A model generated the notes under the pieces. It was not told where the DNA came from, did not search any database, and saw only the letters and a list, made by a program, of their open reading frames with translations. The position numbers and the translations under genes are program-made. Of a stretch of 64,000 nucleotides of DNA, positions 1,224 to 38,971 are shown piece after piece. Origin of the DNA: an uncultured Planctomycetia bacterium (lineage in GTDB: Bacteria > Planctomycetota > UBA1135 > JALUZX01); the NCBI GenBank assembly GCA_964561605.1, contig CAZLQD010000036.1, forward strand, positions 53,447 to 117,446. Direction: 5' to 3'. The number at the start of each line of letters is the position of its first letter. Position 1 is the first letter of the stretch.

Positions 1224-1436
1224 GTGACCAAGGCATACAATGACAACCTCCTGGGAGTTCTTCGGTTGACCCAGGAGATGCTCGCCTTGGCGGAGCAGGG
1301 CGACCGGGACAGGGACGACGACTCCTGCGGGATCGTCTACGGGGTCCTCCGGGACGCCGCCTACAGGATCCGCAAACTCGCCGAGGAAGAGTGCGAGAAG
1401 CACCGCCGGGCGGGGAAGTGGGATCTGGGAAATTGA
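1224..1436 (+). CDS. Hypothetical small protein (70 aa), first gene of the oxygen-defence operon
   Basis: GTG start preceded by AAGGAG (1211-1216). The product is charged and helical-looking ([10 protein letters not shown]..., [13 protein letters not shown]). No family recognised. Codon usage resembles the neighbours. Confidence 0.5.
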
Positions 1437-1525
1437 TGGAAAGAATCCCCCCTCCGGGAACTTTCCCGGAAGGGGAGGATCGAAACCCAGAGGAGGTCGG
1501 AGAAGCCGATCCCAAGGAGGACGAG

Positions 1526-5577: not shown

Positions 5578-5588
5578 GGGGGGGCGCC

Positions 5589-19382: not shown

Positions 19383-21263
19383 CTACTGGACGGTGAAAGT
19401 CGTCGTATAACGGGCCGAGCCCTTGGGCGTGGCGGCAAAGATGTGGAACTTGTAGGTTCCCCTGGGAAGGAGGGCCGGCGCCTTGAGGGAGAAGAGGATG
19501 GTCTCCTCCCGGGGGCCGAGGGCGATCTCCCCCGAGGAGGAGAGGACCGGCCCGGTCACGTCGAAACGGTAGCCTCCTCCTTCGATCTCGATCTTGAAGG
19601 AGTTGAGGGACCGCAGGTCCGGGAGGGCCGATACGGCGAAACGGACCGTCAGGGGTTTGCCGTAGGAGACCTGCGCCGGGTAGGGGGCGGAGCGGACCTC
19701 CACGGCCTGGAAGGGCCTGGGGCAGAGGGCCAGGAGGGGGGTGGCCGAAGTGAGGCCCGCCGGGTCCTTGGCGGTCACCTTGAAGTAGAAGCCCGGATGG
19801 TCGGGAAGGCCCCCCAGGGTGACGGCCCGGCGGCCCTTGTAGGCCTTGCCGGAGGGGATCCTGGATCCCAGGGCGGGGGTGGGACCGTACTCCACCTGGA
19901 AGAGGCAGAGATCGGGGTCGGACGGCCTTCGGGGCACGGCCAGGTCGAGGACCGCCGAGGTGCCCTTCCGGCCTTCCACCTTCACGATCGGCTTGCCGGG
20001 AGGGGTCCTGTCGGGGGTTCTCTTGGATCCTTTGCGGAATGGGGCATAGAGAGGATCGCCCATGTGGACGGCCATCCAGAAGAGGGCCGGGTCGGAGACC
20101 ATGGCCGCCTCGGCCCAGGTGAATCCCTGGGTCACGTAGTAGAGGAGCACCTCCGGCCTCGGGTGGCCCGAGAGATAGGGCTCTCCCACCACGCCGCTTC
20201 CCGCCGTGAGCCCCCTGGCCAGGGCGGAGCCCAGGAAAGTCCCCGGGGCGGCCCTTTCGAAGCCGCGGATGGAGTTGCTGTTCAGGTCGCAGGCGATCGA
20301 CCCGGGGAGCCACTCCCAGACGTCGTGATACTGGTTGTAGTTGTACCACCCGCCGTAGAGGAGGGCCCTGGGCGCGGTGAGGGCCGGGGACCCGTTCCGC
20401 CAGCGGGCGCCCTGCTCGCCGATCTCCTTTCCGCCGGCTTCCCAGTAGACGGGGAGGCCCACGAGTGGGGGAAAGAATTTGCCGAAGGCCATGCACTGGT
20501 CGGCCGACTTGTAGGAGGAGTATCCGAATGGATAATTTTGTTTCAGGAAGGTGTCGGAGAAGTATCCGAACCTGGTGTCCACGTAGGCCCTTCCCCAGAG
20601 GTATCCCTGTCCCTGTCCCCAGTGCTTCTCGGCGTAGAGGGCGCCGTCCACCAGGTCCTTGGCGGCCTCGGCGTCGGTCCCGTCGATCCTGGCGGTCAGG
20701 TAGAGGTCCTTCCCCGCGTAGGAGAAGTTCTTGTGGGTGAAGCGGCCCCGGTCGGGCTGGACGGAGGGGGAGTACTCCAGGTAGGGGTTGGAGGCCCACC
20801 AGGAGGGAAGGGGCCAGTGGGTCCTGTCTCCCAGGGCGGAAGGGACGGTCATGAGGCTGTCCACCGCCCTGAGGCGCCTGCTGGACAGGGGGGTGTAGAT
20901 GTAATATGGCACACCGTAACAAAAGAGGAGGGTGTCGATCTTCCCGGGGCCCAGGGTCTGGAGGGCCTTCTTCACCGGAGTGACCAGCTTGTCGTGGAAT
21001 TCGGCCCAGCCCTTCGTGCCGGACCAGTAGCGCCTGGTCCCGGTGAGGGGGAGGCCGAGGAGGTTCTTGGACGGCACTCCCCGGGCCTTGGCGTAGTAGA
21101 GGGCCACCTCCTTGGAATCCCCCAGGCCGTCTCCGTCGGCGTCGGGCCAGCCACGGGAGTAGATCACCAGGACGCGGGTGGGGTCGTCGGGGGTGACGGT
21201 CTGGGCGGGCAGGAGTCGGGGGAGGAGGAGGATGGAAAGGAAGGGGAGAAGACAAAGGCGCAT
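19383..21263 (-). CDS. Secreted protein resembling the TIGR03790 family, with C-terminal Ig-like region
   Basis: Signal peptide MRLCLLPFLSILLLPRLLPAQT. N-terminal VLVIYSRG...EVALYYAKARGVPSKNLLGLPL and a later GVVGEPYLSGHP...MGDPLYAPF, as I recall for TIGR03790. The final ~150 aa are beta-rich. Confidence 0.65.
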   Translation of the reverse strand: MRLCLLPFLSILLLPRLLPAQTVTPDDPTRVLVIYSRGWPDADGDGLGDSKEVALYYAKARGVPSKNLLGLPLTGTRRYWSGTKGWAEFHDKLVTPVKKALQTLGPGKIDTLLFCYGVPYYIYTPLSSRRLRAVDSLMTVPSALGDRTHWPLPSWWASNPYLEYSPSVQPDRGRFTHKNFSYAGKDLYLTARIDGTDAEAAKDLVDGALYAEKHWGQGQGYLWGRAYVDTRFGYFSDTFLKQNYPFGYSSYKSADQCMAFGKFFPPLVGLPVYWEAGGKEIGEQGARWRNGSPALTAPRALLYGGWYNYNQYHDVWEWLPGSIACDLNSNSIRGFERAAPGTFLGSALARGLTAGSGVVGEPYLSGHPRPEVLLYYVTQGFTWAEAAMVSDPALFWMAVHMGDPLYAPFRKGSKRTPDRTPPGKPIVKVEGRKGTSAVLDLAVPRRPSDPDLCLFQVEYGPTPALGSRIPSGKAYKGRRAVTLGGLPDHPGFYFKVTAKDPAGLTSATPLLALCPRPFQAVEVRSAPYPAQVSYGKPLTVRFAVSALPDLRSLNSFKIEIEGGGYRFDVTGPVLSSSGEIALGPREETILFSLKAPALLPRGTYKFHIFAATPKGSARYTTTFTVQ

Positions 21264-21300
21264 GGATGCCTCCAGGAAGGTGCCGGGAAAGGAATCCTCC

Positions 21301-22263
21301 TTATTCTACCCCTTTTCCCTCCTCCAGGATCCGCCGGGTTTCCCTGATCCAGGCCCGGGCCCGGGTCCTCTCCCCGGGCGAGAGGTTCGGGAGGGCCTTC
21401 TCCAGGCGGGCCAGGGCGCTCCGGAGAGCTTGGAGGGCCTTGGGTGAGGTCCGGGAGAGGACCTTCGCCTTCTCCTCCTTCCACCAGGCCTCCCATTTTT
21501 GCGCCCCCTTCCGCAGGTCCTTCCAGCCCTGTTCGGGCTCCAGGCCGAAGCGTTTCCCCGAGAGGCGCCGGAGTGCCCTGAGACCGATCTCCTTCTCCAG
21601 GGCCCACCGTTCTTTTTCGGGGAGGTGGAAAGCCTTCGCAAGAGGACCGTTGCCGGGGCACCCCGCCTGGAGGAGCCCCAGGAGGAAGGGCACCCCCCAG
21701 GGGGCGCCGAGTTCCAGGAGGGAGGAGGCCGCGGCGGCCCGGACCAGGGGAGCGCTCCTGGTGGGGGCGGGAAGGACCTCCAGGAGCAACCTGGGTGCAG
21801 CCTGGGAACAGCCCAGGTCTCCCAGGGCGAAGGCCCCGGCGGCGGCCACTTCCGGGTCCGGGTCGCCCAGGGCCCGGCAGAGGGGGAGGAGGGACCTTTG
21901 GTCCAGGCACCCCAGGAGGGTGGCGGCGGCCATCTTCACCTGGGGAGTGCCTTCCTGGAGGAGAAGAACCAGGGCCGGGCCTCCTTCCCTACCCAGGGCC
22001 CGGAGGGCCTTCCAGGCCTCCATGGCCTTGGAGGAGGCCGGGTCCGTTCCGGCCAGGAGGGTCCGGGCCGGGGCGGGGGGAGTGCCCGAGGGGAGGGAGA
22101 AGACCGGGAGGCCTGGAGGGAGGAGGAGGTCTTCCAGGGTGGAGGGAGATGCCTGGGAAGGGGGATGTGCCTGGGGCTTGGGGGCTGCGCAGGAACCCAG
22201 GCCGAGGATTCCTGAAAGGAAGAAAAGGGAAAGGGCGGATCCTCTCGGGGAGTACGAAAACAT
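21301..22263 (-). CDS. HEAT-repeat lipoprotein
   Basis: Lipobox LGLGSC. HEAT-like repeats: LGCLDQRSLLPLCRALGDPDPEVAAAGAFALGDLG, PLVRAAAASSLLELG. Confidence 0.7.
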   Translation of the reverse strand: MFSYSPRGSALSLFFLSGILGLGSCAAPKPQAHPPSQASPSTLEDLLLPPGLPVFSLPSGTPPAPARTLLAGTDPASSKAMEAWKALRALGREGGPALVLLLQEGTPQVKMAAATLLGCLDQRSLLPLCRALGDPDPEVAAAGAFALGDLGCSQAAPRLLLEVLPAPTRSAPLVRAAAASSLLELGAPWGVPFLLGLLQAGCPGNGPLAKAFHLPEKERWALEKEIGLRALRRLSGKRFGLEPEQGWKDLRKGAQKWEAWWKEEKAKVLSRTSPKALQALRSALARLEKALPNLSPGERTRARAWIRETRRILEEGKGVE

Positions 22264-22346
22264 CGGTCTCTCCTCTCACCAGGGGAAAGACCGATGGTAA
22301 CGCCCCGGGCCTCCGGGTGCCCAGGGGCGGAGAAGGAAAGGCCTGG

Positions 22347-22721
22347 TTACTTCTTCCTCTTCCTCGTGGCCGCCCCGGCAGCCGCAAGGCCGAGGCCCAC
22401 CAGGAGGAGGGTCGTGGGCTCCGGAACGGGGGTCTCTTTGCCCGGACCCGTTCCTACGGATCCGGAGGGGCCCGTTCCGCCGTCCCCTTTGGGCTTGGGC
22501 GGGACCAGGGCGGCGGGGGGCTGCTCCTGGGAGACCAGGTCCTTGCCACCCGGGCCGGGGCCCAGTTTGGGCCTGTTGAAACTGGAGTCGTCGGGAGGGG
22601 ACTGCTGGGGGGAAGAGGCCGTAACCTGGGAAGAGCCTCCACCTTTGGAGCATCCTCCGGCGAAGGGGAGTGCCGCCAGAGCCAAGATCCCCAATCCCAA
22701 GGCGATTCCTTTCATCTCCAT
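22347..22721 (-). CDS. PEP-CTERM sorting-domain protein with N-terminal lipoprotein signal (124 aa)
   Basis: Lipobox LPFAGGC. The middle is Pro/Gly/Ser-rich. The C-terminus is VPEPTTLLLVGLGLAAAGAATRKRKK, i.e. PEP motif + TM + basic tail. Confidence 0.8.
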   Translation of the reverse strand: MEMKGIALGLGILALAALPFAGGCSKGGGSSQVTASSPQQSPPDDSSFNRPKLGPGPGGKDLVSQEQPPAALVPPKPKGDGGTGPSGSVGTGPGKETPVPEPTTLLLVGLGLAAAGAATRKRKK

Positions 22722-22994
22722 ACCACCTTTCTGCGTCGAACCCCGCCTGCTTCTTTTCTAGAAAAAAGCCGTTTGTCTCAAAAAGTAACAGGAAAAGGTC
22801 CGCTTGTTTCTCCTTCTTGTCTTCGGAGCAAGAGGTCTTCGTGTCTTGCAAGAGTAGCCCCTGAAATCGCATGGGGTTGGCGGAGGCGGCCGGAGAAAGG
22901 AGGGAAAAAATTTCTCTTTGTTCTTCCCTGGAACAAAAGTGCTTCATTGGGAACCGCTCCCGCCTGGGGAGGAGGGCCCGGGAACACCGAGGGC

Positions 22995-25900
22995 TCAGGG
23001 GTTGCCGGGAAGGCGGCCCGGAAATCCCAGGAGGAGGCGGGACTGGGTGGGGAGGACAAGGATCCGGGCGTCACCCGCCGGAGGTGCGGCGATGGGGCGG
23101 CCGTCCCGGTAGCTCCAGAGGACCTGCCACTCCTCGGGGTCCAGGCAGAGCAGGGTCCCGTCGTCCAGGCCCAGGTAGACCTTTCCCTCCAGGAAGGCCC
23201 CCGGCGAGGAGGGTGCGGCCTTGAGGGGGATCTCCCGGAGGACCTTTCCCCCCTGCCTTTTCAGGAGGACCACTCGTTTCGCCTGGGGGAGGGCCAGGAC
23301 CCGGTCTCCCAGGAAGAGGGGGGGAAGGCTCAAGGGAGCGGTGAGCCGGGTCTTCCAGGAGGGTGAACCCTTGGGGGTGAAAGCCAGGATGGACCCGTCC
23401 AGGCAGGCCACCACGACCTGGGTCTTGTCCGCTGCAGGAGCTCCTACACACAGGTCGGGAAGGACCCGCGTCCAGAGGGGGCTTCCCGTCCCGGCGTCCC
23501 TGGCGGAAAGGAGGCCCGGCCGGATTCCGAAGTAGACCTTCCGTCCCGAGAGGACGGGAGGGCTCGAGAGGGCACCTTTCAAGTCCCGGCTCCAGAGAAG
23601 GCGCCCTTCTCCCGGATCCAGGCAGAGAAGGCGTGGGGGCCTTCCCGTGAAGACCAGGACCCCTGAAGGGCCCGCAAGGGCCGGGCCGGCGCCGCTGGGG
23701 GCGACCTTCTTCTTCCAGAGGAGTCTGCCTTCCTTCAAGGAGAGGCAGCGGACCGTCCCCTCGGCGGAGACCAGGAAGACCTTCCCCCTTCGGACCATGG
23801 GCCGGAAGATCTTCCCCGAGAAATCTCCCGTGCGGAAGACCCACTTCTCCTTGCCCCTTTCCGGGTCGAGGCAGGTGAGGATCCCCGCCCGATCCGCCAC
23901 GAGGTAATCCTTCCCGGCCAGGAGGGCGGGCTGGTCCACCGGTCCGGGGAGGGGGGCGGCCCAGGCCCTCCTGCGGGGAAGCCAGGCCAGGAGCCTTCCC
24001 CGGCCCGTCCCCTTGAAGTGGAGGCTCACCGGGTCGAATCCTTCTTTCCTGAAGACCACCTGGTGACTTCCCTGTGGATGGAATTCCAGGGGTAGGGGTG
24101 TCTTCCCTGCGGCCCGGCCGTCGAAGAAGATCCGGGCTCCCGGGGGAACGGACTCCACCTTGAGGGGCAGGCGGACCATCCTTTCGAAGGGAGCCCTGGG
24201 CTCCATCCTCTTGAGAGCCTTGTACACCGCCAGGGCCCGGGGGAAGTCCTGCTTTTTTGCCAGGGCTTCGAGCTCCTCCATCTTGTCCAGGACGGCCCGG
24301 AACTTCCTGGCCCGGCTCACCACGTAGGCCCGGAGCTCGTTGTCCTTCCGGTAGAGTCGGGCCACTTCGGAGTAGAGCTTCCAGGCCTTCCGGAAGTCCC
24401 ATTTCCGCTCGGCCGCCCTGGCCCCTTTGATGAGGGGGTCCAGTTTCTTCGCCAGTCTTTCCTCGGCCAGGTCCTTCTCCAGGCGGGCCTCGAGGCGGGA
24501 AGCCTTCTCCCGTCCTTTCAGGATCCGGTTCAGGGGTTTTTCGATGGTCTCCTTGGGACAGGTCTTCTGGAAGACCTCGAAGGGCCAATGGGCCAGGATT
24601 TCCTTGATCCGGAGAAGAACCTCTTTCCTGGAGGGATCGGTGACCTTCCTCAGGATCTCCAGGGCGGCCTTCCTCTCCTTCAGGGTCGTGGCGTTGTCCG
24701 AGGCCTTGGCGAGGGCTCTCTCCATGGCGTCGGCCATCTCCTGGAGGTCTTCCGCAATGGAGGGAAGGCGCACGTTCCCCAGGATCCCCAGGAACTTCTT
24801 GTGGCCCCTGATCCTGGGAAGGAGCTCCTTGTAGAGCAGGAGGGCCTCGTCCAGCCTACCCTCCTCCTGGAACCTCGAGGCCTCCTCCAGTACGGCCCGG
24901 ATCTTGGCCTCCTTCGCCTCCCTGGCCTTTCGGCGGATCTCCTCCCGGGCCGCCTCGATCTTCCGCTTGACCCGGGCCGCCCGAAGGGCCACGGGGGAAT
25001 CGGGGAGTTCCTCCAGGATCTTTCCGGCCAGGGCCAGGGCCCGGTCGGATTCTCCTTGGGAGACGAGCCGGGAGAGCTCTTTCTCCAGGGTCGCCTCTCT
25101 GTGCCTCCTCAGGACCACCTTTCCTGTGAAGAAGAGGGCCAGGCCCAGGGTCAGGGCGATCCCGGAGCCCACCAGGAGGGCCTTGCGTTTGTCCGTCTTC
25201 TTTCGCTTGAGTTCCCGGAGTTCCCGCTGGGCCTCTTTCTTCCGGGGGTTGAGCTTGGTCAGGTGCTCCAGGACGGTGACGAGCTGCTGGGTCTTTCCTT
25301 CCTCCCTGAAGATACGGGCCATCGTTTCCAGGGCTTCTTCGGCCCTCTCGGGATCGCCGGCCCGCTGGTGGACCCTGGCCACCCGCGCCAGGACTCCCGG
25401 ATCCTCGGGGCGGATCCTGGAGAGTTCCTCCACCTCCTCCAGGGCCCGCTGGTTCATCTCCTTCTCGAAGAAGAGGTCGCAGAGCTCCTGGGTGAGGCGG
25501 AGGTATTCCTCCTGGTCCTCCCGGGGGTCGAGGAAGGACCTCAGGTCCACCCGGGCCTGGAGGTTCTTGGGATCCAGCTCCACCGCCTCGGCCAGGAGCT
25601 CCCTGGCGATCCCCGGAGCCTTCTCCCGGAGGTTGCGGGCCGCCTCCACGAGGACCTCGGCGGCCGATTTCATGTCGTGTATCGTCTTGAAGGCCCTGGC
25701 CACGAGGCGGGCGTCTTCGGGGGAGGTGATCTCCCTCTCCTCCTTGATGACCGCCAGGGTGCGGACGGCCTCTTTGATGTGGCCGTTGCGGACCATCCGG
25801 TCCACCAGGCGGTTCAACTCCTGGAGGGTGGCCTTCCTGACGATTCCCTGGTCCACGCAGAAGGCTATGGCCTTGGCGCATTCGAAGAGGGGGACCAGGG

Positions 25901-26639
25901 TGGCCCGTGCGACGTCCCGGACCGACCGGGTCCCGTCGAGGAAGGGCAGGACCTTGGCGACGTTCTCGCTCACTCCCGTCCGCTTCGCCTCGGGGAGGGT
26001 GAGGAAGATCTCGTCCAGGTCCCCGATCTTCTCCAGGATGATCTCCCACTCGTCCTTGCGGCGGGCCACTTCCAGGAGGATGCCGCTCACGTCGTAGAAA
26101 TTGGACCGGACCGAGTCCTGGGGCGGTTCCTCTCCTTTGAAGAACTCGAAGGTGGCCCGTTTCCAGGTGAAGAGGGAGTAGATCTCCTCCTCTTCGTGCA
26201 TCTGGATCACCGATTCCACCTGCTCACGGGAGATCACCCCCATTCCTACCAGGATGTCCCCGATCCTCCCGCCCTTGGCCTTCTGGCGGAGGAGGGCGTT
26301 CTTCAGGTCCGAAGGATTCAGGATCCCTGCGGCGATGAGCTTGTCTCCCAGGAGGCGGTTTCGGTTTTCCTGGTCTCCCACGAGCTGGACCTTGCCCTGG
26401 TCGAAGTAGACCAGCCTCACCCCGGTGGGGGAGGTGATCCGCAAGGTCCCGGTCATCTGGGACATGGAGAGAGTCTGGAAGATGTCCGAGAGGGAGATGT
26501 TGGAAAGGTCCCCCTTGATGGTGACAAAATGGGCGTTCTGGATGGCCTCTTCGGCGACGGGAGCCTTCTTCTCGGGCTCCTCCCCGGCGAGGAGGAACTC
26601 TACCTCTTCCGCATCCAGAGGGGTCTTGCTTTCGCTCAT
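22995..26639 (-). CDS. Large multidomain membrane protein: DUF4388 + tandem MshEN-type motifs + TPR, TM, periplasmic TPR/coiled region + PEGA + PQQ-like beta-propeller (1214 aa)
   Basis: ATG 26639 (MSESKTPLD...). DUF4388-like: GDLSNISLSDIFQTLSMSQMTGTLRI. MshEN-like: LLGDKLIAAGILNPSDLKNALLRQ-KAKGG-RIGDILVGMGVISREQVESVIQMH. TM: ALLVGSGIALTLGLALFFTG. PEGA: VESVPPGARIFFDGRAAGKTP. Repeated xxxLW propeller blades. Track ORF to 27923 is a 5' extension. Confidence 0.8.
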   Translation of the reverse strand: MSESKTPLDAEEVEFLLAGEEPEKKAPVAEEAIQNAHFVTIKGDLSNISLSDIFQTLSMSQMTGTLRITSPTGVRLVYFDQGKVQLVGDQENRNRLLGDKLIAAGILNPSDLKNALLRQKAKGGRIGDILVGMGVISREQVESVIQMHEEEEIYSLFTWKRATFEFFKGEEPPQDSVRSNFYDVSGILLEVARRKDEWEIILEKIGDLDEIFLTLPEAKRTGVSENVAKVLPFLDGTRSVRDVARATLVPLFECAKAIAFCVDQGIVRKATLQELNRLVDRMVRNGHIKEAVRTLAVIKEEREITSPEDARLVARAFKTIHDMKSAAEVLVEAARNLREKAPGIARELLAEAVELDPKNLQARVDLRSFLDPREDQEEYLRLTQELCDLFFEKEMNQRALEEVEELSRIRPEDPGVLARVARVHQRAGDPERAEEALETMARIFREEGKTQQLVTVLEHLTKLNPRKKEAQRELRELKRKKTDKRKALLVGSGIALTLGLALFFTGKVVLRRHREATLEKELSRLVSQGESDRALALAGKILEELPDSPVALRAARVKRKIEAAREEIRRKAREAKEAKIRAVLEEASRFQEEGRLDEALLLYKELLPRIRGHKKFLGILGNVRLPSIAEDLQEMADAMERALAKASDNATTLKERKAALEILRKVTDPSRKEVLLRIKEILAHWPFEVFQKTCPKETIEKPLNRILKGREKASRLEARLEKDLAEERLAKKLDPLIKGARAAERKWDFRKAWKLYSEVARLYRKDNELRAYVVSRARKFRAVLDKMEELEALAKKQDFPRALAVYKALKRMEPRAPFERMVRLPLKVESVPPGARIFFDGRAAGKTPLPLEFHPQGSHQVVFRKEGFDPVSLHFKGTGRGRLLAWLPRRRAWAAPLPGPVDQPALLAGKDYLVADRAGILTCLDPERGKEKWVFRTGDFSGKIFRPMVRRGKVFLVSAEGTVRCLSLKEGRLLWKKKVAPSGAGPALAGPSGVLVFTGRPPRLLCLDPGEGRLLWSRDLKGALSSPPVLSGRKVYFGIRPGLLSARDAGTGSPLWTRVLPDLCVGAPAADKTQVVVACLDGSILAFTPKGSPSWKTRLTAPLSLPPLFLGDRVLALPQAKRVVLLKRQGGKVLREIPLKAAPSSPGAFLEGKVYLGLDDGTLLCLDPEEWQVLWSYRDGRPIAAPPAGDARILVLPTQSRLLLGFPGRLPGNP

Positions 26640-26720
26640 CTGGATTCCAGACTCTTTGTTTCGGCTTCTCCCAAGGCACCTTGGTTCCGGCGGAGGAAGC
26701 CACCTTTCCGAGGAGGAGCC

Positions 26721-28250
26721 TTGGCCAGGACGCGTCCAGGATTCCTTATCGTCCCAGCCCTCTTCCTGACTCCAGTCTTCTGGAGCCCGGATCTCCCTCT
26801 TCCCCAGGCTTTTCGTGGTCAGGTGGAGAAATTCCTGGCCGATCTCCAGAAGGCCACCACCTTGGACCAGGCCCTTCCGGCGCGGGACGGGCTGGTCCTC
26901 CTGGGGAGGGGTGTCACTCCCCAGGTGGCGAAGGCCCTGGAGAAGGCCGGGAGGAAGGCCCGGTGGAGTCTCCTCCAGGTCCTGGCCCTCCTGGGCGGGA
27001 AGGATGGAGGCAGGGCGCTCCGGCAGGTGCTGGTCCAGCCCCGCTGGCGGAGCCGGGAAGGGTGTCTCTGCCTGGCCGCCCTGGGTCTTCCCCTGGAGTC
27101 GAGGCCCGAGTTGGAGGCCCTGGCGGACCTGGCCGGCGCGGCGGGAGAGAGGATGGCCTGGGCAAGGATCTGCGGCCTCCTGGCCCTGGCCCGGCCGATC
27201 TCGTCCACCGGGGGAAGGCCCGAGGTTTCCTCCCGGACTCTCGAGGCGCCCCAGACCCCCCAGGAGAAGGCCGCCGTCCTTCTCTTCCTGGCCGCCCGGG
27301 GGAGTTCCGCCGACCTGGCCTCGGCCCTGGGCCGCTTCTGGCCGGAGAAGGTCCTTTCCTGGGGGGACCGCCTCGTGGCCCGGGCGGCCTGCCTGGCCGT
27401 GGCGCGAAGGAAGATCCTGGGTTGGGAGGGGCCCCTGCTCTCCTGGCTGGCCTCGGGGAAGACCCGCCCCGAGGACCGGCGGGCCCTCGCCCTGGCCCTG
27501 GGGGCCCTGGAGGTTCCTTCCAGCTCCCCGTCCTTGAAGGGGTTCTCCGATCCCAGGGAGTGGGCCTGTTTCTTCTCCTTGGGGTCGGAAGGGGGGGGAA
27601 AGGGGGAGGAGGAGAGAATCCGGGCCAGGTTGGGCCTTCCCACCTTGGACGATGTGACCAAAGGGGCCTTGGCAGGGGCTTTCGCCAGGTGCCTCGCCAG
27701 GGAGGATCTTCTCCGTAAGGCCCCTTCCTTCCTGGGGGACCACGAGGTGAGGGAAGTCCTCTCCCTGGAGTTGGCCCGGCGGATCCTCCTGGCCCGCCGG
27801 GGGGATCCTTTCCTGGACCGGGCGGGCCGGAGGACCTGGGACCCGGCCCAGGGCACGGAGGGGTTCGTCGTGGCGGCCTTGGCCTCCCGGGGAGTCCTCC
27901 AGAACAAGGGCCCCTTGCCCCAAGGCTGGTCCCTCTGGGCCAAGGCCGTCAGAGGAGAGGTCCCGCCCCCGGTGGTGGGGGAGGCCCTGGAGAAAGCCCT
28001 GAGGAAGCGGTGGGCCTGGCCCACCCAGCTCCTGGAATCGGCCTGGAATGAAGAAGGGATGGCGATCCTTCTGGGGGCGAGCGAGTTCTACCTCCAGAAG
28101 TATCCAGGCCTGGCCCCTCCCAGGGGCAAGGCCCCCTTGCCCCTGGGGGCTCCGTACCGGGGGTCCCCTTTCTACGGCTGGCTCGAAGCCTTCCTCGCGG
28201 CACGTCCCCTCTTCTCTCCCCCGCTGGAGGGAGGGGGGAAGAAGGGCTGA
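26721..28250 (+). CDS. Secreted HEAT/ARM-like repeat protein, divergent from the large membrane protein
   Basis: Normal codon usage in this frame. TTG 26721 is preceded by AGGAGGA and gives signal-like ARTRPGFLIVPALFLTPVFW; GTG 26823 is an alternative. Repeats such as VAKALEKAGRKARWSLLQVLALLGGKDGGRALRQVL. The start is uncertain. Confidence 0.55.
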   Translation: MARTRPGFLIVPALFLTPVFWSPDLPLPQAFRGQVEKFLADLQKATTLDQALPARDGLVLLGRGVTPQVAKALEKAGRKARWSLLQVLALLGGKDGGRALRQVLVQPRWRSREGCLCLAALGLPLESRPELEALADLAGAAGERMAWARICGLLALARPISSTGGRPEVSSRTLEAPQTPQEKAAVLLFLAARGSSADLASALGRFWPEKVLSWGDRLVARAACLAVARRKILGWEGPLLSWLASGKTRPEDRRALALALGALEVPSSSPSLKGFSDPREWACFFSLGSEGGGKGEEERIRARLGLPTLDDVTKGALAGAFARCLAREDLLRKAPSFLGDHEVREVLSLELARRILLARRGDPFLDRAGRRTWDPAQGTEGFVVAALASRGVLQNKGPLPQGWSLWAKAVRGEVPPPVVGEALEKALRKRWAWPTQLLESAWNEEGMAILLGASEFYLQKYPGLAPPRGKAPLPLGAPYRGSPFYGWLEAFLAARPLFSPPLEGGGKKG

Positions 28251-28317
28251 GGGGCTCTTCTCCCGGGTTCCAGAGGTGCAGGAAGGGGGGCTCGAGGGAA
28301 GGACGGGGCCCGGTCTT

Positions 28318-30789
28318 TCAGGCTACGCCGCCCTTTCCCGATTCCCGGGACCGCAGGCTCCGCAGGAGGCGGTCCGCCTCGGCCAGGCCTTCCATGGCGT
28401 CTCTCCCGTAGCCGTCGGCCCCGATCTCTTCGGCGAAGGAGCGGGTCACGACGGCTCCTCCCACGAGGAAGCGGGAGGGCAGTCCCCGTTTGCGGGCCTC
28501 CGAGATCACCCGTTTCATCTCCACCATGGTGGTGGTCATGAGGGCCGAGAGGGCCACCAGGGGGGCCTTCTCCTGGAAGGCTCTGGCCAGGATGGTCTCC
28601 CGGTCCACGTTCTTGCCCAGGTCGATCACCTCGTACCCGTGGTTCTCCAGGACGGCGGCCAGGATGTTCTTGCCGATGTCGTGGACGTCTCCTTTTACGG
28701 TGGCCAGGACGACTTTCCCCTTCGCCTCGCCCGCCGCCTTGGGCAGGAGAGGGCGGAGGACCTGGAAGGCCCTCTGCATGGTCTCCGCCGCCAGGATCAC
28801 CTGGGGAAGAAAGAAGATCTTCGCGTTGAAACGGCGTCCCACTTCCTCCATGGCCGGAACGAGGATCTCGGAATTGAGGGCCATGGGATCCATCCCGCTC
28901 TCCACGCCCTCCCCGACCAGGTCCTGGATCCGGTCCCGGTCTCCTTCGATGACGGCGCGGCGGATCTTCTCCTCCAGGGGGGGCTCCTTCTCCCGGGCCG
29001 CCTCGGAGGCCTTCTTCCGGACCGGGGCCGGGGCGCCGCCGAAGAGGCGGATGTAGGTGGAGAACTGGGGGTCCCTCTGGATGAGCACGTTTCCCGCGGC
29101 GGCCGTTTCCATCAAGTCCCGGTCGAGAGGGTTCAGGATGGCCCCGTCCAGGCCGGCCTGCATGGCCATGGCGAGGAAGGTCCGGTTCACCAGCTCCCTC
29201 CTGGGGAGTCCGAAGGAGACGTTGCTGAGTCCCAGGAGGGTGCGGACGTGGAAGCGTTCCCGGACCTCCTGGATGGTGCGCATGGTCGCCAGGGCCTGGT
29301 CGGGGGCGGCGCTCACGGGCAGGCAAACGCAATCGATGAAGAGGTCCCTCCTGGGGATCCCGGCCTCGTCGCAGGCCGCGACGATGGTTTCGGCGATCCG
29401 GATCCGCTCCTCCACGGTTTTGGGAACGCCCTTCTCGTCGACCAGGAGTCCCAGGACGGCGGCGCCCCATTTCCGCGCCAGGGGAAGGACGCGGAGGATC
29501 TTCTCCCTCTCACCCGTTACGGAGTTGATGAGGCATTTCCCGGGCGCTTCGGCCAGGCCCGCCTCCAGGGCCTCCGGGTCGGCGGAGTCGATGGAGAGGG
29601 GCGGTGAAGGGGCCACTTCCTGGACCGTCCGGACGGCGGCGGCCATGAGGCGGGCCTCCAGGTCCGAGTCGGCGCCGCCGACCCCGACGTTCACGTCCAG
29701 CACGTGGGCCCCGGCGCCGGCCTGGTCGGCCGCTTCCCGGCGGACCGTGGCCATGGAACCCCCCTTCAGCTCGGCCCGGAACTTCTTCCTTCCCGAGGGG
29801 TTGATCCGCTCCCCGATGACCCGGAAGGGCAGACCGGGCCCGAAGAGGACCGTCTCCGTTCCAGAGGCGAGGCGCGTCACGGGAAGGGGGTCGGGCCTCC
29901 CGGGCTTCATGGCCTTTACGACGGGCCGGATGGTGCGGATGTAGTCCTCGTCGGTTCCGCAGCATCCACCGATGATGGAGACGCCGCAGGAGACGAATCC
30001 CGGCACGCAGTCCATCAGGTCCCGGGGGGTTCCGGGGAATATGGTCCTGTCTCCGTCCCGGACGGGAAGCCCTGCATTGGGCTCCACCGAAAGAGGTTTC
30101 ACCGCATAGGGCGCCATCTCCCGGAAGACCTCGAGAAGCTTGGCCGGCCCGACGGAGCAGTTGGCCCCTACGACGTCCACGTCCAGGGCCTCCACCACGG
30201 TGAGGGCCGTCAGGGCGTCCGTTCCGTAGAAGGTGCGGCCGTCCTCCTGGAAGGTGAGTTGGGCGATGAGGGGGCCGTCGTAGTGGCGCCTCACGGCCTG
30301 GACGATGGCCTTCATCTCCCGGAGTTCGAAGATGGTCTCCACGATGAAGAGGTCCGGGTCCATGGAGACCAGGGCCTCGACCTGTTCCTCGTAATTCCGG
30401 CGGACCTCTTCGAAGGTGGCCTCCCCCAGGGGCTGGATCAGCTTGCCCGAGGGGCCGAGGCCGGCCGCCACGAGGGTTCCCGGCCCCGCCGCTTCCCTCG
30501 CGAGGCGGACGGCGAGGCGGTTGATCTCCCGCATCCTCCCCGCCAGGTCGGGATGGTCCGCCAGGCGCAGGGGTGAAGCACCGAAGGTCGCAGTGATGAG
30601 GATGTCCGCCCCGGCGGAAACGTATGCCCTGTGCACGTCCCGGATCACCTCGGGCCGGGAGAGCATGAAGGCCTCGGGTGGTTCGCCCGGCGGAAGGCCC
30701 CTGGCCTGGAGCATGGTGCCCATGGCCCCGTCCAGGAGGAGGACCTCCTTGCGAAGCCGGCTGGTGAAGCTTTGGCGGGCGTAATTCAT
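28318..30789 (-). CDS. metH: Methionine synthase, short form (Hcy-binding + pterin-binding + B12-binding; no AdoMet reactivation domain)
   Basis: 823 aa. Contains an N-terminal S-methyltransferase barrel (LLLDGAMGTMLQ...GGCCGT), a pterin-binding domain, and B12-binding DxHxxG (GDVHDIGKNI). The protein ends shortly after the B12 domain. Confidence 0.9.
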   Translation of the reverse strand: MNYARQSFTSRLRKEVLLLDGAMGTMLQARGLPPGEPPEAFMLSRPEVIRDVHRAYVSAGADILITATFGASPLRLADHPDLAGRMREINRLAVRLAREAAGPGTLVAAGLGPSGKLIQPLGEATFEEVRRNYEEQVEALVSMDPDLFIVETIFELREMKAIVQAVRRHYDGPLIAQLTFQEDGRTFYGTDALTALTVVEALDVDVVGANCSVGPAKLLEVFREMAPYAVKPLSVEPNAGLPVRDGDRTIFPGTPRDLMDCVPGFVSCGVSIIGGCCGTDEDYIRTIRPVVKAMKPGRPDPLPVTRLASGTETVLFGPGLPFRVIGERINPSGRKKFRAELKGGSMATVRREAADQAGAGAHVLDVNVGVGGADSDLEARLMAAAVRTVQEVAPSPPLSIDSADPEALEAGLAEAPGKCLINSVTGEREKILRVLPLARKWGAAVLGLLVDEKGVPKTVEERIRIAETIVAACDEAGIPRRDLFIDCVCLPVSAAPDQALATMRTIQEVRERFHVRTLLGLSNVSFGLPRRELVNRTFLAMAMQAGLDGAILNPLDRDLMETAAAGNVLIQRDPQFSTYIRLFGGAPAPVRKKASEAAREKEPPLEEKIRRAVIEGDRDRIQDLVGEGVESGMDPMALNSEILVPAMEEVGRRFNAKIFFLPQVILAAETMQRAFQVLRPLLPKAAGEAKGKVVLATVKGDVHDIGKNILAAVLENHGYEVIDLGKNVDRETILARAFQEKAPLVALSALMTTTMVEMKRVISEARKRGLPSRFLVGGAVVTRSFAEEIGADGYGRDAMEGLAEADRLLRSLRSRESGKGGVA

Positions 30790-30904: not shown

Positions 30905-30991
<87 letters not shown>

Positions 30992-32614: not shown

Positions 32615-33982
32615 GTGAAGATGAAGGTTCTTCTCGTCCATCCCTGGCGACCGAGCGTGTACGGGGCCGCCGGCATCACGGTCCCGCCTGCGGGCCTTCT
32701 CTATCTGGCCGCCGTCCTCGAGAGGGGGGGACACCAGGTGGTCTTCCAGGACCGGGTCCTCTCCGTCGAGGATCTCCGCCTGGAAGGGGCGGGGCTGGTG
32801 GGGATCACCTGCCACGCCCCGACCTTCAAGTTGGCCCTCTCCCTGGGCCGCCGGGCCAAAGCGGCGGGGATTCCCGTGGTCCTGGGGGGGCCCCAGGTGA
32901 CCTTCACCTACGAGGAGGCCCTGGAGTCGGGCGCGGCGGATTTCGCCGTCAGGGGGGAAGGAGAAGAGACTCTCCTGGAGCTGGCCGACCTCCTCTCCGG
33001 CCGGAGGGACGGCGGCCTCGGCTCCATACCGGGCCTGGTCTGGAAGGACGGGCCCTCCGGGGGGATCGTGGTCAACCCGGACCGCCCGGCCCTGGAGGAC
33101 CTGGACGCCCTCCCCTTTCCGGCCCTTCCCCTGGTCGATCTCTCCCACTACCGGACTCTTACGGTCGCCGGGAGACAGGCCGTCCCGATCGTCACCTCCC
33201 GGGGATGTCCCTTCCGGTGCAATTTCTGCGTGGTTCCCAATCTGCCCCAGAGGAGGTGGAGGGCCCGCTCCGTGGAGAACGTGGTCCGGGAGATGGAGTG
33301 GTGGAACCGGGAGCTGGGGTTCTCCTCCTTCGTCTTCGTCGACGACAACCTGACGGTGGATCCGGGCAGGTTGAGGGAGTTCTGCGCCCTCCTCCTCGAA
33401 AAAGGCGCTCCTTTCCGCTGGTGGTGCATGTCCCGGGCGGACACCCTGGTGAGGCACGAGGACCTGGTGGACCTCATGGCCGGGGCCGGCTGCGTAACGG
33501 TCTTCCTCGGCCTGGAGAGCGGAAGCGACCGGGTCCTGGCGGAGTACGGAAAGAGGGAGAGGGTGGAAACGGGGAGGGAGGCCGTGCGCCTCCTGGAGTC
33601 CCGGGGGATCGAGGCCCACGCCTCCTTCATCCTGGGGAGTCCGGGAGAGACCAGGGAGGACGTGGAGGCCACCATCGAATACGCCCTGGACCTGGACCCG
33701 GCGGTGGTCCAGTTCTCCATCCTGACCCCCTACCCGGGCACCCCACTCTTCGAGCGGCTGAAGGGAAGGCTGGTCACCCGGGACTGGGACCTCTTCGACG
33801 CCGCCCATGCGGTCTACCGGCATGACAGGATGGAGCCTTCCGAACTGGAGAGGCTCCTGGTGAAGGCCTATCGGAGGTTCTACGGGAGACCCGGAAGGAT
33901 CCGGCGGAGCCTGGGAGAGAGAGGGGCGATCCGGAGGGCCTTCCGGGTGATCCGGTTTCTTTCTTCGACCCGGGGGAGGTGA
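32615..33982 (+). CDS. B12-binding domain-containing radical SAM protein
   Basis: N-terminal Rossmann-like B12-binding region (MKVLLVHPW...VGITCHAPTF). Radical SAM: SRGCPFRCNFCVVP. Confidence 0.88.
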   Translation: MKMKVLLVHPWRPSVYGAAGITVPPAGLLYLAAVLERGGHQVVFQDRVLSVEDLRLEGAGLVGITCHAPTFKLALSLGRRAKAAGIPVVLGGPQVTFTYEEALESGAADFAVRGEGEETLLELADLLSGRRDGGLGSIPGLVWKDGPSGGIVVNPDRPALEDLDALPFPALPLVDLSHYRTLTVAGRQAVPIVTSRGCPFRCNFCVVPNLPQRRWRARSVENVVREMEWWNRELGFSSFVFVDDNLTVDPGRLREFCALLLEKGAPFRWWCMSRADTLVRHEDLVDLMAGAGCVTVFLGLESGSDRVLAEYGKRERVETGREAVRLLESRGIEAHASFILGSPGETREDVEATIEYALDLDPAVVQFSILTPYPGTPLFERLKGRLVTRDWDLFDAAHAVYRHDRMEPSELERLLVKAYRRFYGRPGRIRRSLGERGAIRRAFRVIRFLSSTRGR

Positions 33983-33986
33983 AGCC

Positions 33987-35720: not shown

Positions 35721-36362
35721 ATGGGAGCTGGAGACCGCAAGGCCCGGGCGGAAAGCACCAAGGAGAAGCTTCTCGAGGCAGGCCTCGAGGTCTTTGCCGA
35801 GAAGGGCTTCGAGGGGGCCCGGGTGGAGGAGATCGCCCGCAGGGCCGGGGTGAACATCCGGATGCTCTACCACCACTTCCGCTCCAAGGAGGGGCTCTTC
35901 CTCAAGGTGGTGGAGGGAATGCACAAGGAGATCCAGGCCAGGCAGGACGCGGTCTTCCGGACCGAGGCCCCTCCCTTCGAGCTCCTCACCCAGGCAATCG
36001 AGGATCTCTTCGACTTCCTGGGGAGAAACCCTTCCTTCGTGAAGATCCTGGGATGGCTCAGCCTTTCGGGGGGGAGGCGGGGTCCTCTCCCGGAAGTGGG
36101 AAAGGACTACGCCCTCCGGGTGGTCCGGCCCAGGATGGAGGAACTGGCCCGCAGCGGGGCCTGGAACGGGGCGGTGGATCCTCTCTTCGCCATCCTGATG
36201 TGCTGGTCTCTTTCGGTCTTCTGGTTCCTGAACAGGGGGGAATTCCACTCCATGGTGGAGGCAGGCACGCCCCTCGAGAAGGATCGTGCCTACCTGGACC
36301 AGGTCCTGGCCCTTCTCGAGGGAGGACTCCTGGGAAAGAGCTCCAAGGAGGGGAGAGAATGA
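35721..36362 (+). CDS. TetR/AcrR family transcriptional regulator
   Basis: N-terminal HTH: LLEAGLEVFAEKGFEGARVEEIARRAGVNIRMLYHHFRSKEGL. Confidence 0.9.
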   Translation: MGAGDRKARAESTKEKLLEAGLEVFAEKGFEGARVEEIARRAGVNIRMLYHHFRSKEGLFLKVVEGMHKEIQARQDAVFRTEAPPFELLTQAIEDLFDFLGRNPSFVKILGWLSLSGGRRGPLPEVGKDYALRVVRPRMEELARSGAWNGAVDPLFAILMCWSLSVFWFLNRGEFHSMVEAGTPLEKDRAYLDQVLALLEGGLLGKSSKEGRE

Positions 36363-38969: not shown

Positions 38970-38971
38970 GG

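What the first reader, a model, noticed from the sequence alone, without database searches (positions are those of the whole stretch)
26196..26354. Tandem 24-residue MshEN-type motifs with the canonical 5-residue spacer in the 1214-aa protein
Residues 96-119 (LLGDKLIAAGILNPSDLKNALLRQ) and 125-148 (RIGDILVGMGVISREQVESVIQMH) both follow the RLGxx(L/V/I)(L/V/I)xxG(L/V/I)(L/V/I)xxxx(L/V/I)xxx(L/V/I)xxQ pattern. That pattern was defined for the c-di-GMP-binding MshE N-terminal domain, and here the two copies are separated by exactly five residues (KAKGG). Deviations: the first Arg of motif 1 is Leu (an Arg sits one residue earlier), and the last Gln of motif 2 is His. The motifs follow a DUF4388 domain rather than preceding a secretion ATPase. 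They are linked through a TM helix to periplasmic PEGA and beta-propeller domains, so this would be a transmembrane output for c-di-GMP.
Basis: partly seen in the sequence, partly recalled or inferred. Interest (0 to 1): 0.65.

Follow-up and report, generated by a model that had tools for sequence, protein, structure and literature searches.

The report
c-di-GMP-binding motif inside a PATAN domain
[quoted passage not shown] This module, and its nesting in PATAN domains, were already catalogued, so this is a new member of a known kind.

Summary
Residues 96-119 and 125-148 of a 1214-aa protein (window 22995-26639, minus strand) carry two 24-residue MshEN-type motifs separated by exactly five residues.

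Evidence that this is an MshEN_N module:
- Chance is excluded: 0 of 20,000 shuffles gave a tandem match.
- The curated NCBIfam model NF053729 (c-di-GMP motif, MshE-related) scores 50.8 bits against a cutoff of 38.
- An AlphaFold model of the segment has c-di-GMP-bound MshE and PilF GSPII-B as its top eight PDB matches (rmsd 1.2-2.0 Å).

The motifs do not follow DUF4388. They form the four-helix insertion inside it, the PATAN "alpha-clip". Wang et al. 2016 already listed a PATAN protein, MXAN_3211, among predicted c-di-GMP-binding MshEN proteins.

The protein belongs to a family of about 1200 aa found in Planctomycetota genomes assembled from metagenomes. Its order is PATAN with nested MshEN_N, TPR, one TM helix, helical region, PEGA, beta-propeller. 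40 of 41 members hit NF053729. In 17 of 17 usable ortholog loci a PEP-CTERM protein gene lies directly downstream.

Of the target's deviations, L96 is benign and H148 probably only weakens binding. Ligand binding and any transmembrane output remain untested.

The parts
22995..26639 (-). Gene for the 1214-aa protein. Domain order: PATAN with nested MshEN_N, wHTH-like, TPR, TM helix, helical region, PEGA, beta-propeller.
   Evidence: ORF and start. GC3 frame plot. Pfam and NCBIfam domains. Full-length homologs.
26589..26618 (-). Conserved N-terminal peptide, aa 8-17 (LDAEEVEFLL).
   Evidence: The pattern L-x-x-[EA]-E-[VIL]-[DE]-F-L-L occurs in 30 of 79 family representatives, against 1 background hit in 152,000 residues. 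Function unknown.
26376..26525 (-). PATAN (DUF4388) core, N-terminal half, aa 39-88: strands and one helix.
   Evidence: Pfam PF14332 at 7e-30. AF2 strands 39-44, 64-70, 73-80 and 83-88.
26160..26375 (-). Four-helix MshEN_N / alpha-clip insertion, aa 89-160.
   Evidence: Helices 90-103, 109-122, 126-132 and 138-158. NF053729 at 50.8 bits. Foldseek top hits are 5htl and PilF GSPII-B.
26283..26354 (-). Motif 1, aa 96-119. L96 replaces the consensus Arg; Q119 is kept.
26268..26282 (-). Five-residue spacer KAKGG, aa 120-124.
   Evidence: A 29-residue motif offset occurs in 48 of the 51 proteins with tandem cores.
26196..26267 (-). Motif 2, aa 125-148. Has R125 and I126; H148 replaces the consensus Gln.
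26025..26159 (-). PATAN core, C-terminal half, aa 161-205. Contains the family-invariant ARRxDEW.
25788..26024 (-). Winged-helix-like domain, aa 206-284.
   Evidence: AF2 pLDDT above 90. Only a weak HTH_47 match, E 0.004, below the Pfam cutoff.
25197..25772 (-). Cytoplasmic TPR region, about aa 290-481.
   Evidence: Pfam TPR_19, TPR_14 and TPR_9.
25110..25181 (-). Single transmembrane helix, about aa 487-510.
   Evidence: It is the only hydrophobic segment. Across 72 members, K+R averages 7.2 on the N side and 2.9 on the C side.
24195..25109 (-). Periplasmic helical region, aa 511-815.
   Evidence: Conserved in 42 homologs. Only sub-threshold TPR hits.
24027..24164 (-). PEGA domain, aa 826-871.
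   Evidence: Pfam PF08308, 37.9 bits against a cutoff of 20.8.
23052..23903 (-). PQQ/BamB-type beta-propeller, aa 913-1196.
   Evidence: Pfam PQQ_2 at 2e-28. The BamB models match only below their cutoffs.
22347..22721 (-). Downstream 124-aa protein: lipoprotein signal, Gly/Pro-rich region, PEP-CTERM sorting signal.
   Evidence: Pfam PEP-CTERM, 31.4 bits against a cutoff of 20.7. A PEP-CTERM ORF sits in the same position in 17 of 17 ortholog loci.
21301..22263 (-). Downstream HEAT-repeat lipoprotein, 320 aa.
   Evidence: Pfam HEAT_2. Found downstream in at least 10 distant loci.

Best explanation
Residues 89-160 form an MshEN_N-type four-helix bundle, two helix hairpins each carrying one 24-residue motif. 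It is inserted between beta strands of a cytoplasmic PATAN domain; this is the insertion called 'alpha-clip' in PATAN proteins.

Shown here: the sequence and predicted-fold identity with MshEN_N, its nesting in PATAN, its conservation across a family of about 1200 aa in Planctomycetota, and an N-in/C-out single-pass topology.

Inferred: the module binds one c-di-GMP molecule. Each guanine would stack on a hydrophobic cluster (L97/L112/L116, and I126/V141/V144) and be capped by L96 and R125. Q119 would hydrogen-bond one phosphate/ribose. H148, in place of the second Gln, would give somewhat weaker affinity than the Gln/Gln orthologs.

Further inferred: ligand binding alters the PATAN/TPR interaction surface or the oligomeric state of this membrane-anchored scaffold. 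Its periplasmic helical, PEGA and beta-propeller part would act on the cell envelope, most likely in connection with the co-encoded PEP-CTERM surface protein and HEAT lipoprotein.
For: - NCBIfam NF053729 passes its cutoff on aa 97-146, and 40 of 41 family members hit it.
- PDB sequence matches to MshE, PilF and PilB N-termini are in register.
- AF2 model of aa 1-290 has pLDDT 87.8; the segment-only model has 79.8. The segment's top eight PDB fold matches are all c-di-GMP-bound MshEN-type domains; 5htl_B has probability 1.00, TMq 0.62 and rmsd 1.6 Å over 54 columns.
- Ligand-contacting residues are conserved in 100 family N-termini: G98 97%, L101 98%, G105 90%, L116 90%, Q119 82%, G127 91%, L130 95%, Q148 84%. 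The target meets 21 of 22 key positions.
- None of the XpsE-type disabling changes listed by Wang et al. occurs, except at the Q61 position, where XpsE has Val and the target has H148.
- Leu at motif position 1 is native in PilF GSPII-B (L196), and K167L improves KD to 2 nM. Single Gln-to-Glu mutants still bind at 0.46-0.95 µM; only the double mutant abolishes binding (PMC11731258).
- MshEN_N alone binds c-di-GMP with KD 0.35 µM (PMC5013675).
- MXAN_3211, a PATAN protein, aligns in register with the target (z = 9), also has His at the last position of motif 2, and was placed among predicted binders by Wang et al..
- Topology. PEP-CTERM and HEAT linkage.
Against: - No binding measurement exists for this protein, or, in the literature I could search, for any PATAN-nested copy.
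- H148 sits at a ligand-contacting position. Only 2% of family members have His there.
- PilF GSPII-A, which has His at the end of motif I plus a degenerate motif II, does not bind.
- The Pfam MshEN/T2SSE_N model gives no hit.
- No GGDEF, EAL, HD-GYP or PilZ gene, and no c-di-GMP riboswitch, is in the 64-kb window.
- A single TM helix is a poor conduit for allosteric change.
- Part of the synteny in distant loci is plain genome order, for example a pseudouridine synthase gene between the PEP-CTERM and HEAT genes.
Confidence: 0.6

Rival explanations
1. The alpha-clip of this particular protein is a degenerate, non-binding MshEN_N. It serves only as a structural or protein-protein contact element of the PATAN domain, as in XpsE, PilF GSPII-A or MXAN_1145. 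The protein would then be a c-di-GMP-independent envelope scaffold.
For: - The target fails both the strict and the published relaxed regular expressions because of L96 and H148.
- His at a terminal motif position also occurs in the non-binding PilF GSPII-A.
- PATAN domains are known as protein-interaction modules that contact PilB and PilC.
- Wang et al. classed another PATAN-like protein, MXAN_1145, as a non-binder.
- No c-di-GMP enzymes lie nearby.
Against: - 21 of 22 key positions are intact.
- Leu at position 1 improves binding in PilF.
- Losing one of the two Gln residues leaves sub-micromolar binding in PilF.
- Both Gly residues, whose mutation kills binding in MshE, are present.
- GSPII-A's failure goes with a 45%-degenerate motif II, which is not the case here.
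- MXAN_3211, with the same His, was predicted to bind.
- H148 is kept in all three relatives at 72-89% identity (alignment), so it is not random decay.
Confidence: 0.27
2. The protein binds c-di-GMP, but information flows from outside to inside or not across the membrane at all. The periplasmic propeller/PEGA part only anchors or localises the protein, or senses an envelope cue. The cytoplasmic PATAN-TPR part recruits partners such as pilus or motility components as a function of c-di-GMP. There is no 'transmembrane output'.
For: - Characterised PATAN proteins act in the cytoplasm on type IV pilus motor parts.
- There is a single TM helix.
- There is a large cytoplasmic TPR region and a conserved N-terminal peptide suited to docking partners.
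Against: - The tight linkage is to genes for exported proteins (PEP-CTERM protein, HEAT lipoprotein), not to pilus or motility genes.
- More than half of the protein is periplasmic and is conserved.
Confidence: 0.12
3. The motif match is a chance resemblance in an amphipathic helical region.
For: Short hydrophobic-periodic patterns occur by chance: 6 other single loose-core hits appear in the six-frame translation of the window.
Against: - Tandem matches in shuffles: 0 of 20,000.
- The curated HMM scores above its cutoff.
- The fold match is specific.
- The motif is conserved across a family at only 25-40% identity.
Confidence: 0.01

Closest known systems
MshE N-terminal domain, N subdomain (MshEN_N), Vibrio cholerae, PDB 5HTL
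   Same: Two 24-residue motifs with a 5-residue spacer in a four-helix bundle. 35-42% identity over 45-54 aligned positions, rmsd 0.7-1.6 Å to the model. The Gly, Leu/Ile/Val and first Gln positions are kept.
   Different: There is no C-terminal subdomain (T2SSE_N1) and no secretion ATPase. The module is inserted inside another domain rather than at the N-terminus. L96 replaces R9 and H148 replaces Q61.
PilF GSPII-B domain, Thermus thermophilus (PDB 8PDK, 8PE0)
   Same: Same fold (rmsd 1.2-1.9 Å). A non-Arg residue (Lys or Leu) at motif position 1 gives hydrophobic capping of guanine, as expected for L96.
   Different: GSPII-B keeps Gln at the end of both motifs. It has a C-terminal subdomain that adds a contact to the ligand. 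It belongs to a cytoplasmic ATPase.
PATAN domain with alpha-clip insertion (PatA, PixG, PixE; M. xanthus MXAN_3211)
   Same: DUF4388/PATAN core with a nested insertion of two helix hairpins. MXAN_3211 aligns in register, including His at the end of motif 2, and is already in the 2016 MshEN census as a predicted binder.
   Different: Known PATAN proteins are soluble, usually fused to a REC domain, and act on type IV pili. This one has no REC domain and is a 1214-aa single-pass membrane protein with TPR, PEGA and propeller domains.
NfrB (E. coli), a c-di-GMP-activated glycosyltransferase with an MshEN domain
   Same: An MshEN-type receptor on an inner-membrane protein whose output concerns the cell surface. 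The NCBIfam NfrB models align weakly to aa 90-150.
   Different: NfrB's output is a cytoplasm-facing GT2 enzyme on a multi-pass protein. No enzyme domain is present here.
LapD and Alg44 (c-di-GMP receptors with periplasmic output domains)
   Same: Analogy only: a cytoplasmic c-di-GMP receptor module linked through the membrane to a periplasmic protein-interaction domain. From established knowledge, not tested here.
   Different: LapD uses a degenerate EAL/GGDEF pair, a HAMP domain and two TM helices. Alg44 uses a PilZ domain. There is no sequence or fold relation to the present protein.

Membership tests
MshEN_N (c-di-GMP-binding N subdomain of MshEN) | Two tandem 24-residue motifs, RLGxx(L/V/I)(L/V/I)xxG(L/V/I)(L/V/I)xxxxLxxxLxxQ | tested here: met
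   The core positions 2-21 match in both copies. End positions deviate (L96, H148) and I126 replaces L. 21 of 22 key positions are met when Leu at position 1 is allowed, following the PilF data. NF053729 scores 50.8 bits against a cutoff of 38.
MshEN_N (c-di-GMP-binding N subdomain of MshEN) | Five-residue spacer between the motifs | tested here: met
   KAKGG, aa 120-124. A 29-residue offset occurs in 48 of the 51 proteins with tandem cores.
MshEN_N (c-di-GMP-binding N subdomain of MshEN) | Four-helix bundle made of two helix hairpins | tested here: met
   AF2 helices 90-103, 109-122, 126-132 and 138-158. Top eight PDB fold hits are 5htl and PilF GSPII-B, rmsd 1.2-2.0 Å, probability 0.97-1.00. 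The E-values are modest (0.014-0.57) because the segment is short.
MshEN_N (c-di-GMP-binding N subdomain of MshEN) | [quoted passage not shown] | tested here: inconclusive
   Q119 is present and H148 replaces the second Gln. In PilF, single Gln-to-Glu mutants still bind at 0.46-0.95 µM. The effect of His is unknown.
MshEN_N (c-di-GMP-binding N subdomain of MshEN) | Measured binding of c-di-GMP | not testable with these tools
   Needs ITC, DRaCALA or DSF on the purified domain.
Full MshEN / T2SSE_N domain (Pfam PF05157) | N subdomain plus C-terminal subdomain (T2SSE_N1), usually preceding a T2SSE ATPase | tested here: not met
   No PF05157 hit at E up to 10 for the insert, or at E up to 1 for aa 1-200. 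The PATAN beta strand resumes directly after helix 4. There is no ATPase domain.
PATAN / DUF4388 (Pfam PF14332) | Match to the family model over its whole length | tested here: met
   104 bits against a cutoff of 25, profile positions 1-122 of 122. The match persists end to end at 62.6 bits when the insert is deleted.
PATAN / DUF4388 (Pfam PF14332) | Alpha-helical ('alpha-clip') insertion of two repeated helix hairpins within the domain | tested here: met
   The insert alone matches profile positions 46-86. The model shows strands on both sides. The description of the alpha-clip is as quoted in bioRxiv 10.1101/2021.06.11.447907.
PatA-type response regulator | C-terminal REC (CheY-like) domain | tested here: not met
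   No Response_reg hit.
BamB (outer membrane protein assembly factor) | Score above the equivalog cutoff; a lipoprotein of about 390 aa | tested here: not met
   TIGR03300 scores 143 bits against a cutoff of 285, and NF008351 scores 55 against 423. Only the propeller fold class is shared.
LapD-type inside-out c-di-GMP receptor | Degenerate GGDEF-EAL receptor, HAMP domain, periplasmic LapG-binding domain | tested here: not met
   None of these domains is found. This is a functional analogy only.
PEP-CTERM/exosortase system (for the downstream gene) | C-terminal PEP motif, TM segment and basic tail; an exosortase in the genome | tested here: inconclusive
   The PEP-CTERM signal is met at 31.4 bits against a cutoff of 20.7. 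No exosortase gene turned up in the window or in the loci I looked at, but I did not search for one specifically.

The most novel reading that the evidence does not exclude
The family could be a planctomycete-specific inside-out c-di-GMP pathway built from unrelated parts. Cytoplasmic c-di-GMP would be read by the PATAN-nested MshEN_N module. It would then control, through a single-pass scaffold with a periplasmic PEGA/beta-propeller, the sorting, display or turnover of the co-encoded PEP-CTERM surface protein. [quoted passage not shown]
Probability: 0.15. Interest if true: 0.65.

Novelty: new member of a known kind. Interest (0 to 1): 0.38.

Why it matters
Few Planctomycetota have a known c-di-GMP receptor. 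Wang et al. list MshEN as the only known receptor type in Isosphaera. If this family binds the messenger, it gives that phylum a receptor that sits in the membrane and faces the envelope. Its strict pairing with a PEP-CTERM protein gene gives a concrete, testable target for what c-di-GMP controls there.

It would also be the first tested PATAN-nested MshEN_N. That bears on the many cyanobacterial and myxobacterial PATAN regulators of pilus-based motility.

As an observation, however, it extends a catalogued domain to one more architecture. NCBI's own domain model already recognises it, although the deposited names ('PQQ-binding-like beta-propeller repeat protein', 'DUF4388 domain-containing protein') do not say so.

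Tried and rejected
- **Pfam T2SSE_N/MshEN model:** It gives no hit on aa 1-200 or on the insert alone. This is uninformative rather than negative, because that model includes the absent C subdomain.
- **Word-indexed homolog search with aa 1-290:** only 2 hits. The exhaustive HMMER scan was needed.
- **Whole-model fold search:** the top hits (GATOR1/SEAC subunits) have rmsd 17-19 Å and are not interpretable. MshE and PilF appeared only as local hits with poor E-values, so the segment was modelled and searched alone.
- **Local c-di-GMP context:** no GGDEF, EAL, HD-GYP or PilZ domain in about 40 window ORFs, and no c-di-GMP riboswitch.
- **Divergent upstream gene (26721-28250) as a conserved partner:** a gene occupies the same position in distant loci, but no sequence similarity was found by tblastn, phmmer or a profile. 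I dropped it from the conserved core.
- **The ~340-aa gene between the PEP-CTERM and HEAT genes in distant loci:** it is a pseudouridine synthase, so part of the synteny is mere gene order.
- **N-terminal peptide LDAEEVEFLL as a FliM-like CheY-docking motif (recalled from memory):** single-sequence and profile searches of PDB sequences found no FliM. Not supported.
- **Pairwise BLASTP of the target against the MXAN_3211 fragment:** it aligned out of register because of the internal repeat. A global alignment was used instead.
- **Promoter and terminator scan of 21000-28400:** not above the shuffle expectation.
Full report
**The observation**

The finding lies in a minus-strand gene, window 22995-26639, encoding 1214 aa from the ATG at 26639. 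The GC3 frame plot changes phase just upstream of that ATG, and relatives at 72-89% identity start at the same Met.

The two quoted 24-mers are at aa 96-119 (26354-26283) and aa 125-148 (26267-26196), separated by KAKGG. There is a third: I126 where the pattern has a literal Leu.

Because of L96 and H148, neither the strict pattern nor Wang et al.'s relaxed search pattern matches end to end. The Gly/hydrophobic core, motif positions 2-21, matches in both copies with a 29-residue offset. This is the only LVI-core match in the six-frame translation of the window. A tandem core match occurred in 0 of 20,000 shuffles of the protein.

**Is it an MshEN-type module?**

Yes, on four lines of evidence.
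- Curated model: NCBIfam NF053729 ('cyclic di-GMP-binding domain-containing protein, MshE-related', 53 positions) matches aa 97-146 with 50.8 bits against a cutoff of 38. The NfrB models align weakly to the same stretch.
- Solved structures by sequence: phmmer against PDB sequences finds Thermus PilF, V. cholerae MshE (5HTL, E 9e-5) and PilB N-termini, aligned in register.
- Fold: an AlphaFold2 model of aa 1-290 built on 76 sequences (pLDDT 87.8) places four helices (90-103, 109-122, 126-132, 138-158) between beta strands 83-88 and 163-168. A model of aa 86-162 alone (pLDDT 79.8) has eight c-di-GMP-bound MshEN-type chains as its top eight PDB matches. 5htl_B has probability 1.00, TMq 0.62 and rmsd 1.6 Å over 54 columns; the PilF GSPII-B chains have rmsd 1.2-2.0 Å. 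The E-values are modest (0.014-0.57) for so short a query.
- Pfam: the T2SSE_N/MshEN model gives no hit. This is expected, because that model also covers the C-terminal subdomain, which is missing here.

**Where it sits**

The motifs do not follow DUF4388; they are inside it.
- The Pfam match covers aa 42-199 over profile positions 1-122 of 122.
- With aa 90-159 deleted, the remainder still matches the profile end to end at 62.6 bits.
- The insert alone matches profile positions 46-86.

DUF4388 is the PATAN (PatA N-terminal) domain. A preprint citing Makarova et al. 2006 describes many PATAN domains as carrying a small insertion of two repeated units, each of two antiparallel helices, called the 'alpha-clip'. 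[quoted passage not shown]

The 2016 MshEN paper's own census already includes such a protein. MXAN_3211 is called a PATAN domain protein elsewhere. It is aligned from residue 50 in their Supplementary Fig. 3c and appears in the column of Supplementary Table 3 that holds MshE, PA2677, NfrB and Bd2402, the binders and predicted binders. A global alignment puts it in register with the target (z = 9 against shuffles). The alignment includes the PATAN strand after the insert (FTW..F.F against FHW..F.F) and a His at the last position of motif 2. The kind of thing found here is therefore already catalogued.

**The family**

A word-indexed search found almost nothing. An exhaustive HMMER scan of 1.84 billion cluster representatives with aa 1-290 gave 8749 hits at E below 1e-3 and 172 below 1e-30.

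About 100 of the 150 best hits are proteins of 1000-1300 aa. At least 66 share TPR, PEGA and propeller segments with the target, and 72 have a hydrophobic helix near residue 490. NCBI names for members are 'PQQ-binding-like beta-propeller repeat protein' and 'DUF4388 domain-containing protein', from Planctomycetota bacteria.

A scan of one genome per GTDB species found at least 521 relatives. Nearly all full-length ones are in MAGs labelled Planctomycetota (a few are labelled only 'bacterium'), at 24-30% identity. Some genomes hold two paralogs. PATAN-only relatives occur in Gemmatimonadota, many also with MshEN-like motifs. The nearest relatives, at 72% full-length identity, are in MAG GCA_054037495.1 and share the window's gene order.

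**Conservation of the binding residues**

In 100 family N-termini the ligand-contacting or groove-forming positions are the best conserved of the insert:

| Position | Most common residue | Frequency |
|---|---|---|
| 96 | R | 79% |
| 97 | L | 77% |
| 98 | G | 97% |
| 101 | L | 98% |
| 105 | G | 90% |
| 112 | L | 77% |
| 116 | L | 90% |
| 119 | Q | 82% |
| 126 | L | 77% |
| 127 | G | 91% |
| 130 | L | 95% |
| 134 | G | 84% |
| 148 | Q | 84% |

The spacer is five residues in 48 of the 51 proteins with tandem cores. 40 of 41 full-length members hit NF053729. Conserved terminal Gln residues make sense for a ligand site and are not needed for a plain helical hairpin.

**The target's own deviations**

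The target meets 21 of 22 key positions.
- **L96.** In PilF GSPII-B the first residues of the two motifs are Lys and Leu. K167L improves KD from 6 to 2 nM, and the authors call it the first such domain not relying on Arg. L96 is therefore not a defect.
- **H148.** It replaces a Gln that hydrogen-bonds a phosphate and a 2'-OH. In PilF, single Q190E or Q218E mutants drop to 950 and 460 nM but still bind; only the double mutant abolishes binding. His is conserved in the three closest relatives (alignment).
- **XpsE-type changes.** Of the disabling changes listed by Wang et al. (G11V, I19R, L29R, R38G, G40L, L54H, L58C, Q61V), only the Q61 position is altered, and there XpsE has Val while the target has His.
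- **Isolated subdomain.** The MshE N subdomain alone binds at 0.35 µM.

**Rest of the protein and topology**

After the PATAN domain come the following:
- a winged-helix-like domain, aa 206-284, with high pLDDT but only sub-threshold HTH hits;
- TPR repeats, about aa 290-481;
- one hydrophobic helix, about aa 487-510;
- a helical region of about 300 aa;
- a PEGA domain, aa 826-871;
- a PQQ/BamB-type propeller, aa 913-1196. The BamB equivalog models score far below their cutoffs, so it is not BamB.

There is no signal peptide. Across 72 members, K+R within 20 residues of the helix averages 7.2 on the N side and 2.9 on the C side.

**Gene neighbourhood**

Directly downstream, on the same strand:
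- 22347-22721: a 124-aa protein with a lipoprotein signal, a Gly/Pro-rich middle and a PEP-CTERM sorting signal (31.4 bits against a cutoff of 20.7).
- 21301-22263: a HEAT-repeat lipoprotein.
- 19383-21263: a 626-aa secreted protein with no Pfam match.

Family members split into two groups. Group A shares the target's N-terminal peptide; group B lacks it. In group A, 17 of 17 loci with at least 1.2 kb of downstream sequence have a PEP-CTERM ORF immediately downstream on the same strand. In group B the figure is 1 of 20. A homolog of the HEAT protein follows in at least 10 distant loci.

Some of the remaining synteny is only gene order; for example, a pseudouridine synthase gene sits between the two in distant loci. 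The divergently transcribed upstream gene keeps its position but not any detectable sequence similarity.

No c-di-GMP-metabolising gene, PilZ gene or c-di-GMP riboswitch is in the window.

**How it most likely works**

- Shown: an MshEN_N-type module nested in a cytoplasmic PATAN domain of a conserved single-pass membrane protein, genetically linked to exported proteins.
- Inferred: it binds monomeric c-di-GMP in the MshE/PilF manner. Binding changes the PATAN/TPR surface or the oligomeric state, and the periplasmic part acts on the envelope, plausibly on the PEP-CTERM protein.
- Direction of signalling: inside-out as in LapD, or mere anchoring of a cytoplasmic adaptor. This is not decided by any result here. 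A single TM helix argues for control through oligomerisation or recruitment rather than through a transmitted conformational change.

**Novelty and score**

MshEN_N fused to many other domains, its nesting in PATAN, and the prediction of c-di-GMP binding for such proteins are all in the 2006 and 2016 literature and in a curated NCBI model.

What is new is this particular planctomycete architecture and its pairing with a PEP-CTERM gene. In the literature I could search, no PATAN-nested copy has been tested for binding.

I rate it a new member of a known kind, with interest 0.38.

Noticed in passing
window 26589-26618 (minus), aa 8-17 of the 1214-aa protein: A short N-terminal peptide, L-x-x-[EA]-E-[VIL]-[DE]-F-L-L (here LDAEEVEFLL), is conserved in 30 of 79 family representatives. 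These form ortholog group A, which is the group whose loci carry the PEP-CTERM neighbour. AF2 predicts a short helix at aa 10-17, with low confidence. It looks like a docking motif. A recalled resemblance to the FliM CheY-binding peptide was not supported by PDB profile searches.
   Followed up: partly
window 22347-22721 (minus): A 124-aa protein has both a lipoprotein signal (…FAGGC) and a PEP-CTERM sorting signal, with a Gly/Pro/Ser-rich middle. An equivalent gene lies directly downstream of 17 of 17 orthologs in distant Planctomycetota MAGs.
   Followed up: yes
window 21301-22263 (minus): A HEAT-repeat protein with a lipoprotein-type signal. A homolog is found downstream of the family gene in at least 10 distant loci.
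   Followed up: partly
window 26721-28250 (plus) and 19383-21263 (minus): Two secreted proteins with no Pfam match: one of 509 aa with a TTG start, a good ribosome-binding site and a signal peptide, and one of 626 aa. Both are conserved only in the relatives that share 72% identity in the 1214-aa protein. A divergent gene of similar size occupies the upstream position in distant loci, but without detectable similarity.
   Followed up: partly
L010 and L037 (same contig JAXMCA010000001.1); L011 and L051 (same MAG): Some Planctomycetota genomes carry two paralogs of the family. The paralog lacking the N-terminal peptide also lacks the PEP-CTERM neighbour.
   Followed up: partly
P0004, P0005, P0006 (1455-1492 aa): These proteins carry five or six tandem PATAN repeats. 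Usually only one MshEN-like core per repeat is recognisable, and it often ends in Lys instead of Gln.
   Followed up: no
window 1391-1900, 3067-4272, 32615-35483: Markers of an anaerobic lifestyle: a desulfoferrodoxin, a flavodiiron-type protein (metallo-beta-lactamase fold plus flavodoxin), and two adjacent radical-SAM genes, one of which also has a B12-binding domain.
   Followed up: no
window 4477-8879 and 37797-42010: Two RND efflux operons (membrane fusion protein plus AcrB-type pump). The second follows a TetR-family regulator gene at 35721-36362.
   Followed up: no
window 53802-59992 (minus): A TamB-like 1381-aa protein next to an Omp85/POTRA protein, that is, a TAM-type outer-membrane assembly pair.
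   Followed up: no
window 28318-30789 (minus) and 30905-30991 (minus): A methionine synthase with homocysteine S-methyltransferase, pterin-binding and B12-binding domains (823 aa). No match to the C-terminal activation domain appeared in the Pfam scan. A tRNA-Leu gene (anticodon TAG) lies just upstream of it.
   Followed up: no
window 42060-45026 (plus): A 988-aa ORF with coding-like GC3 and no Pfam match at E up to 1e-4.
   Followed up: no
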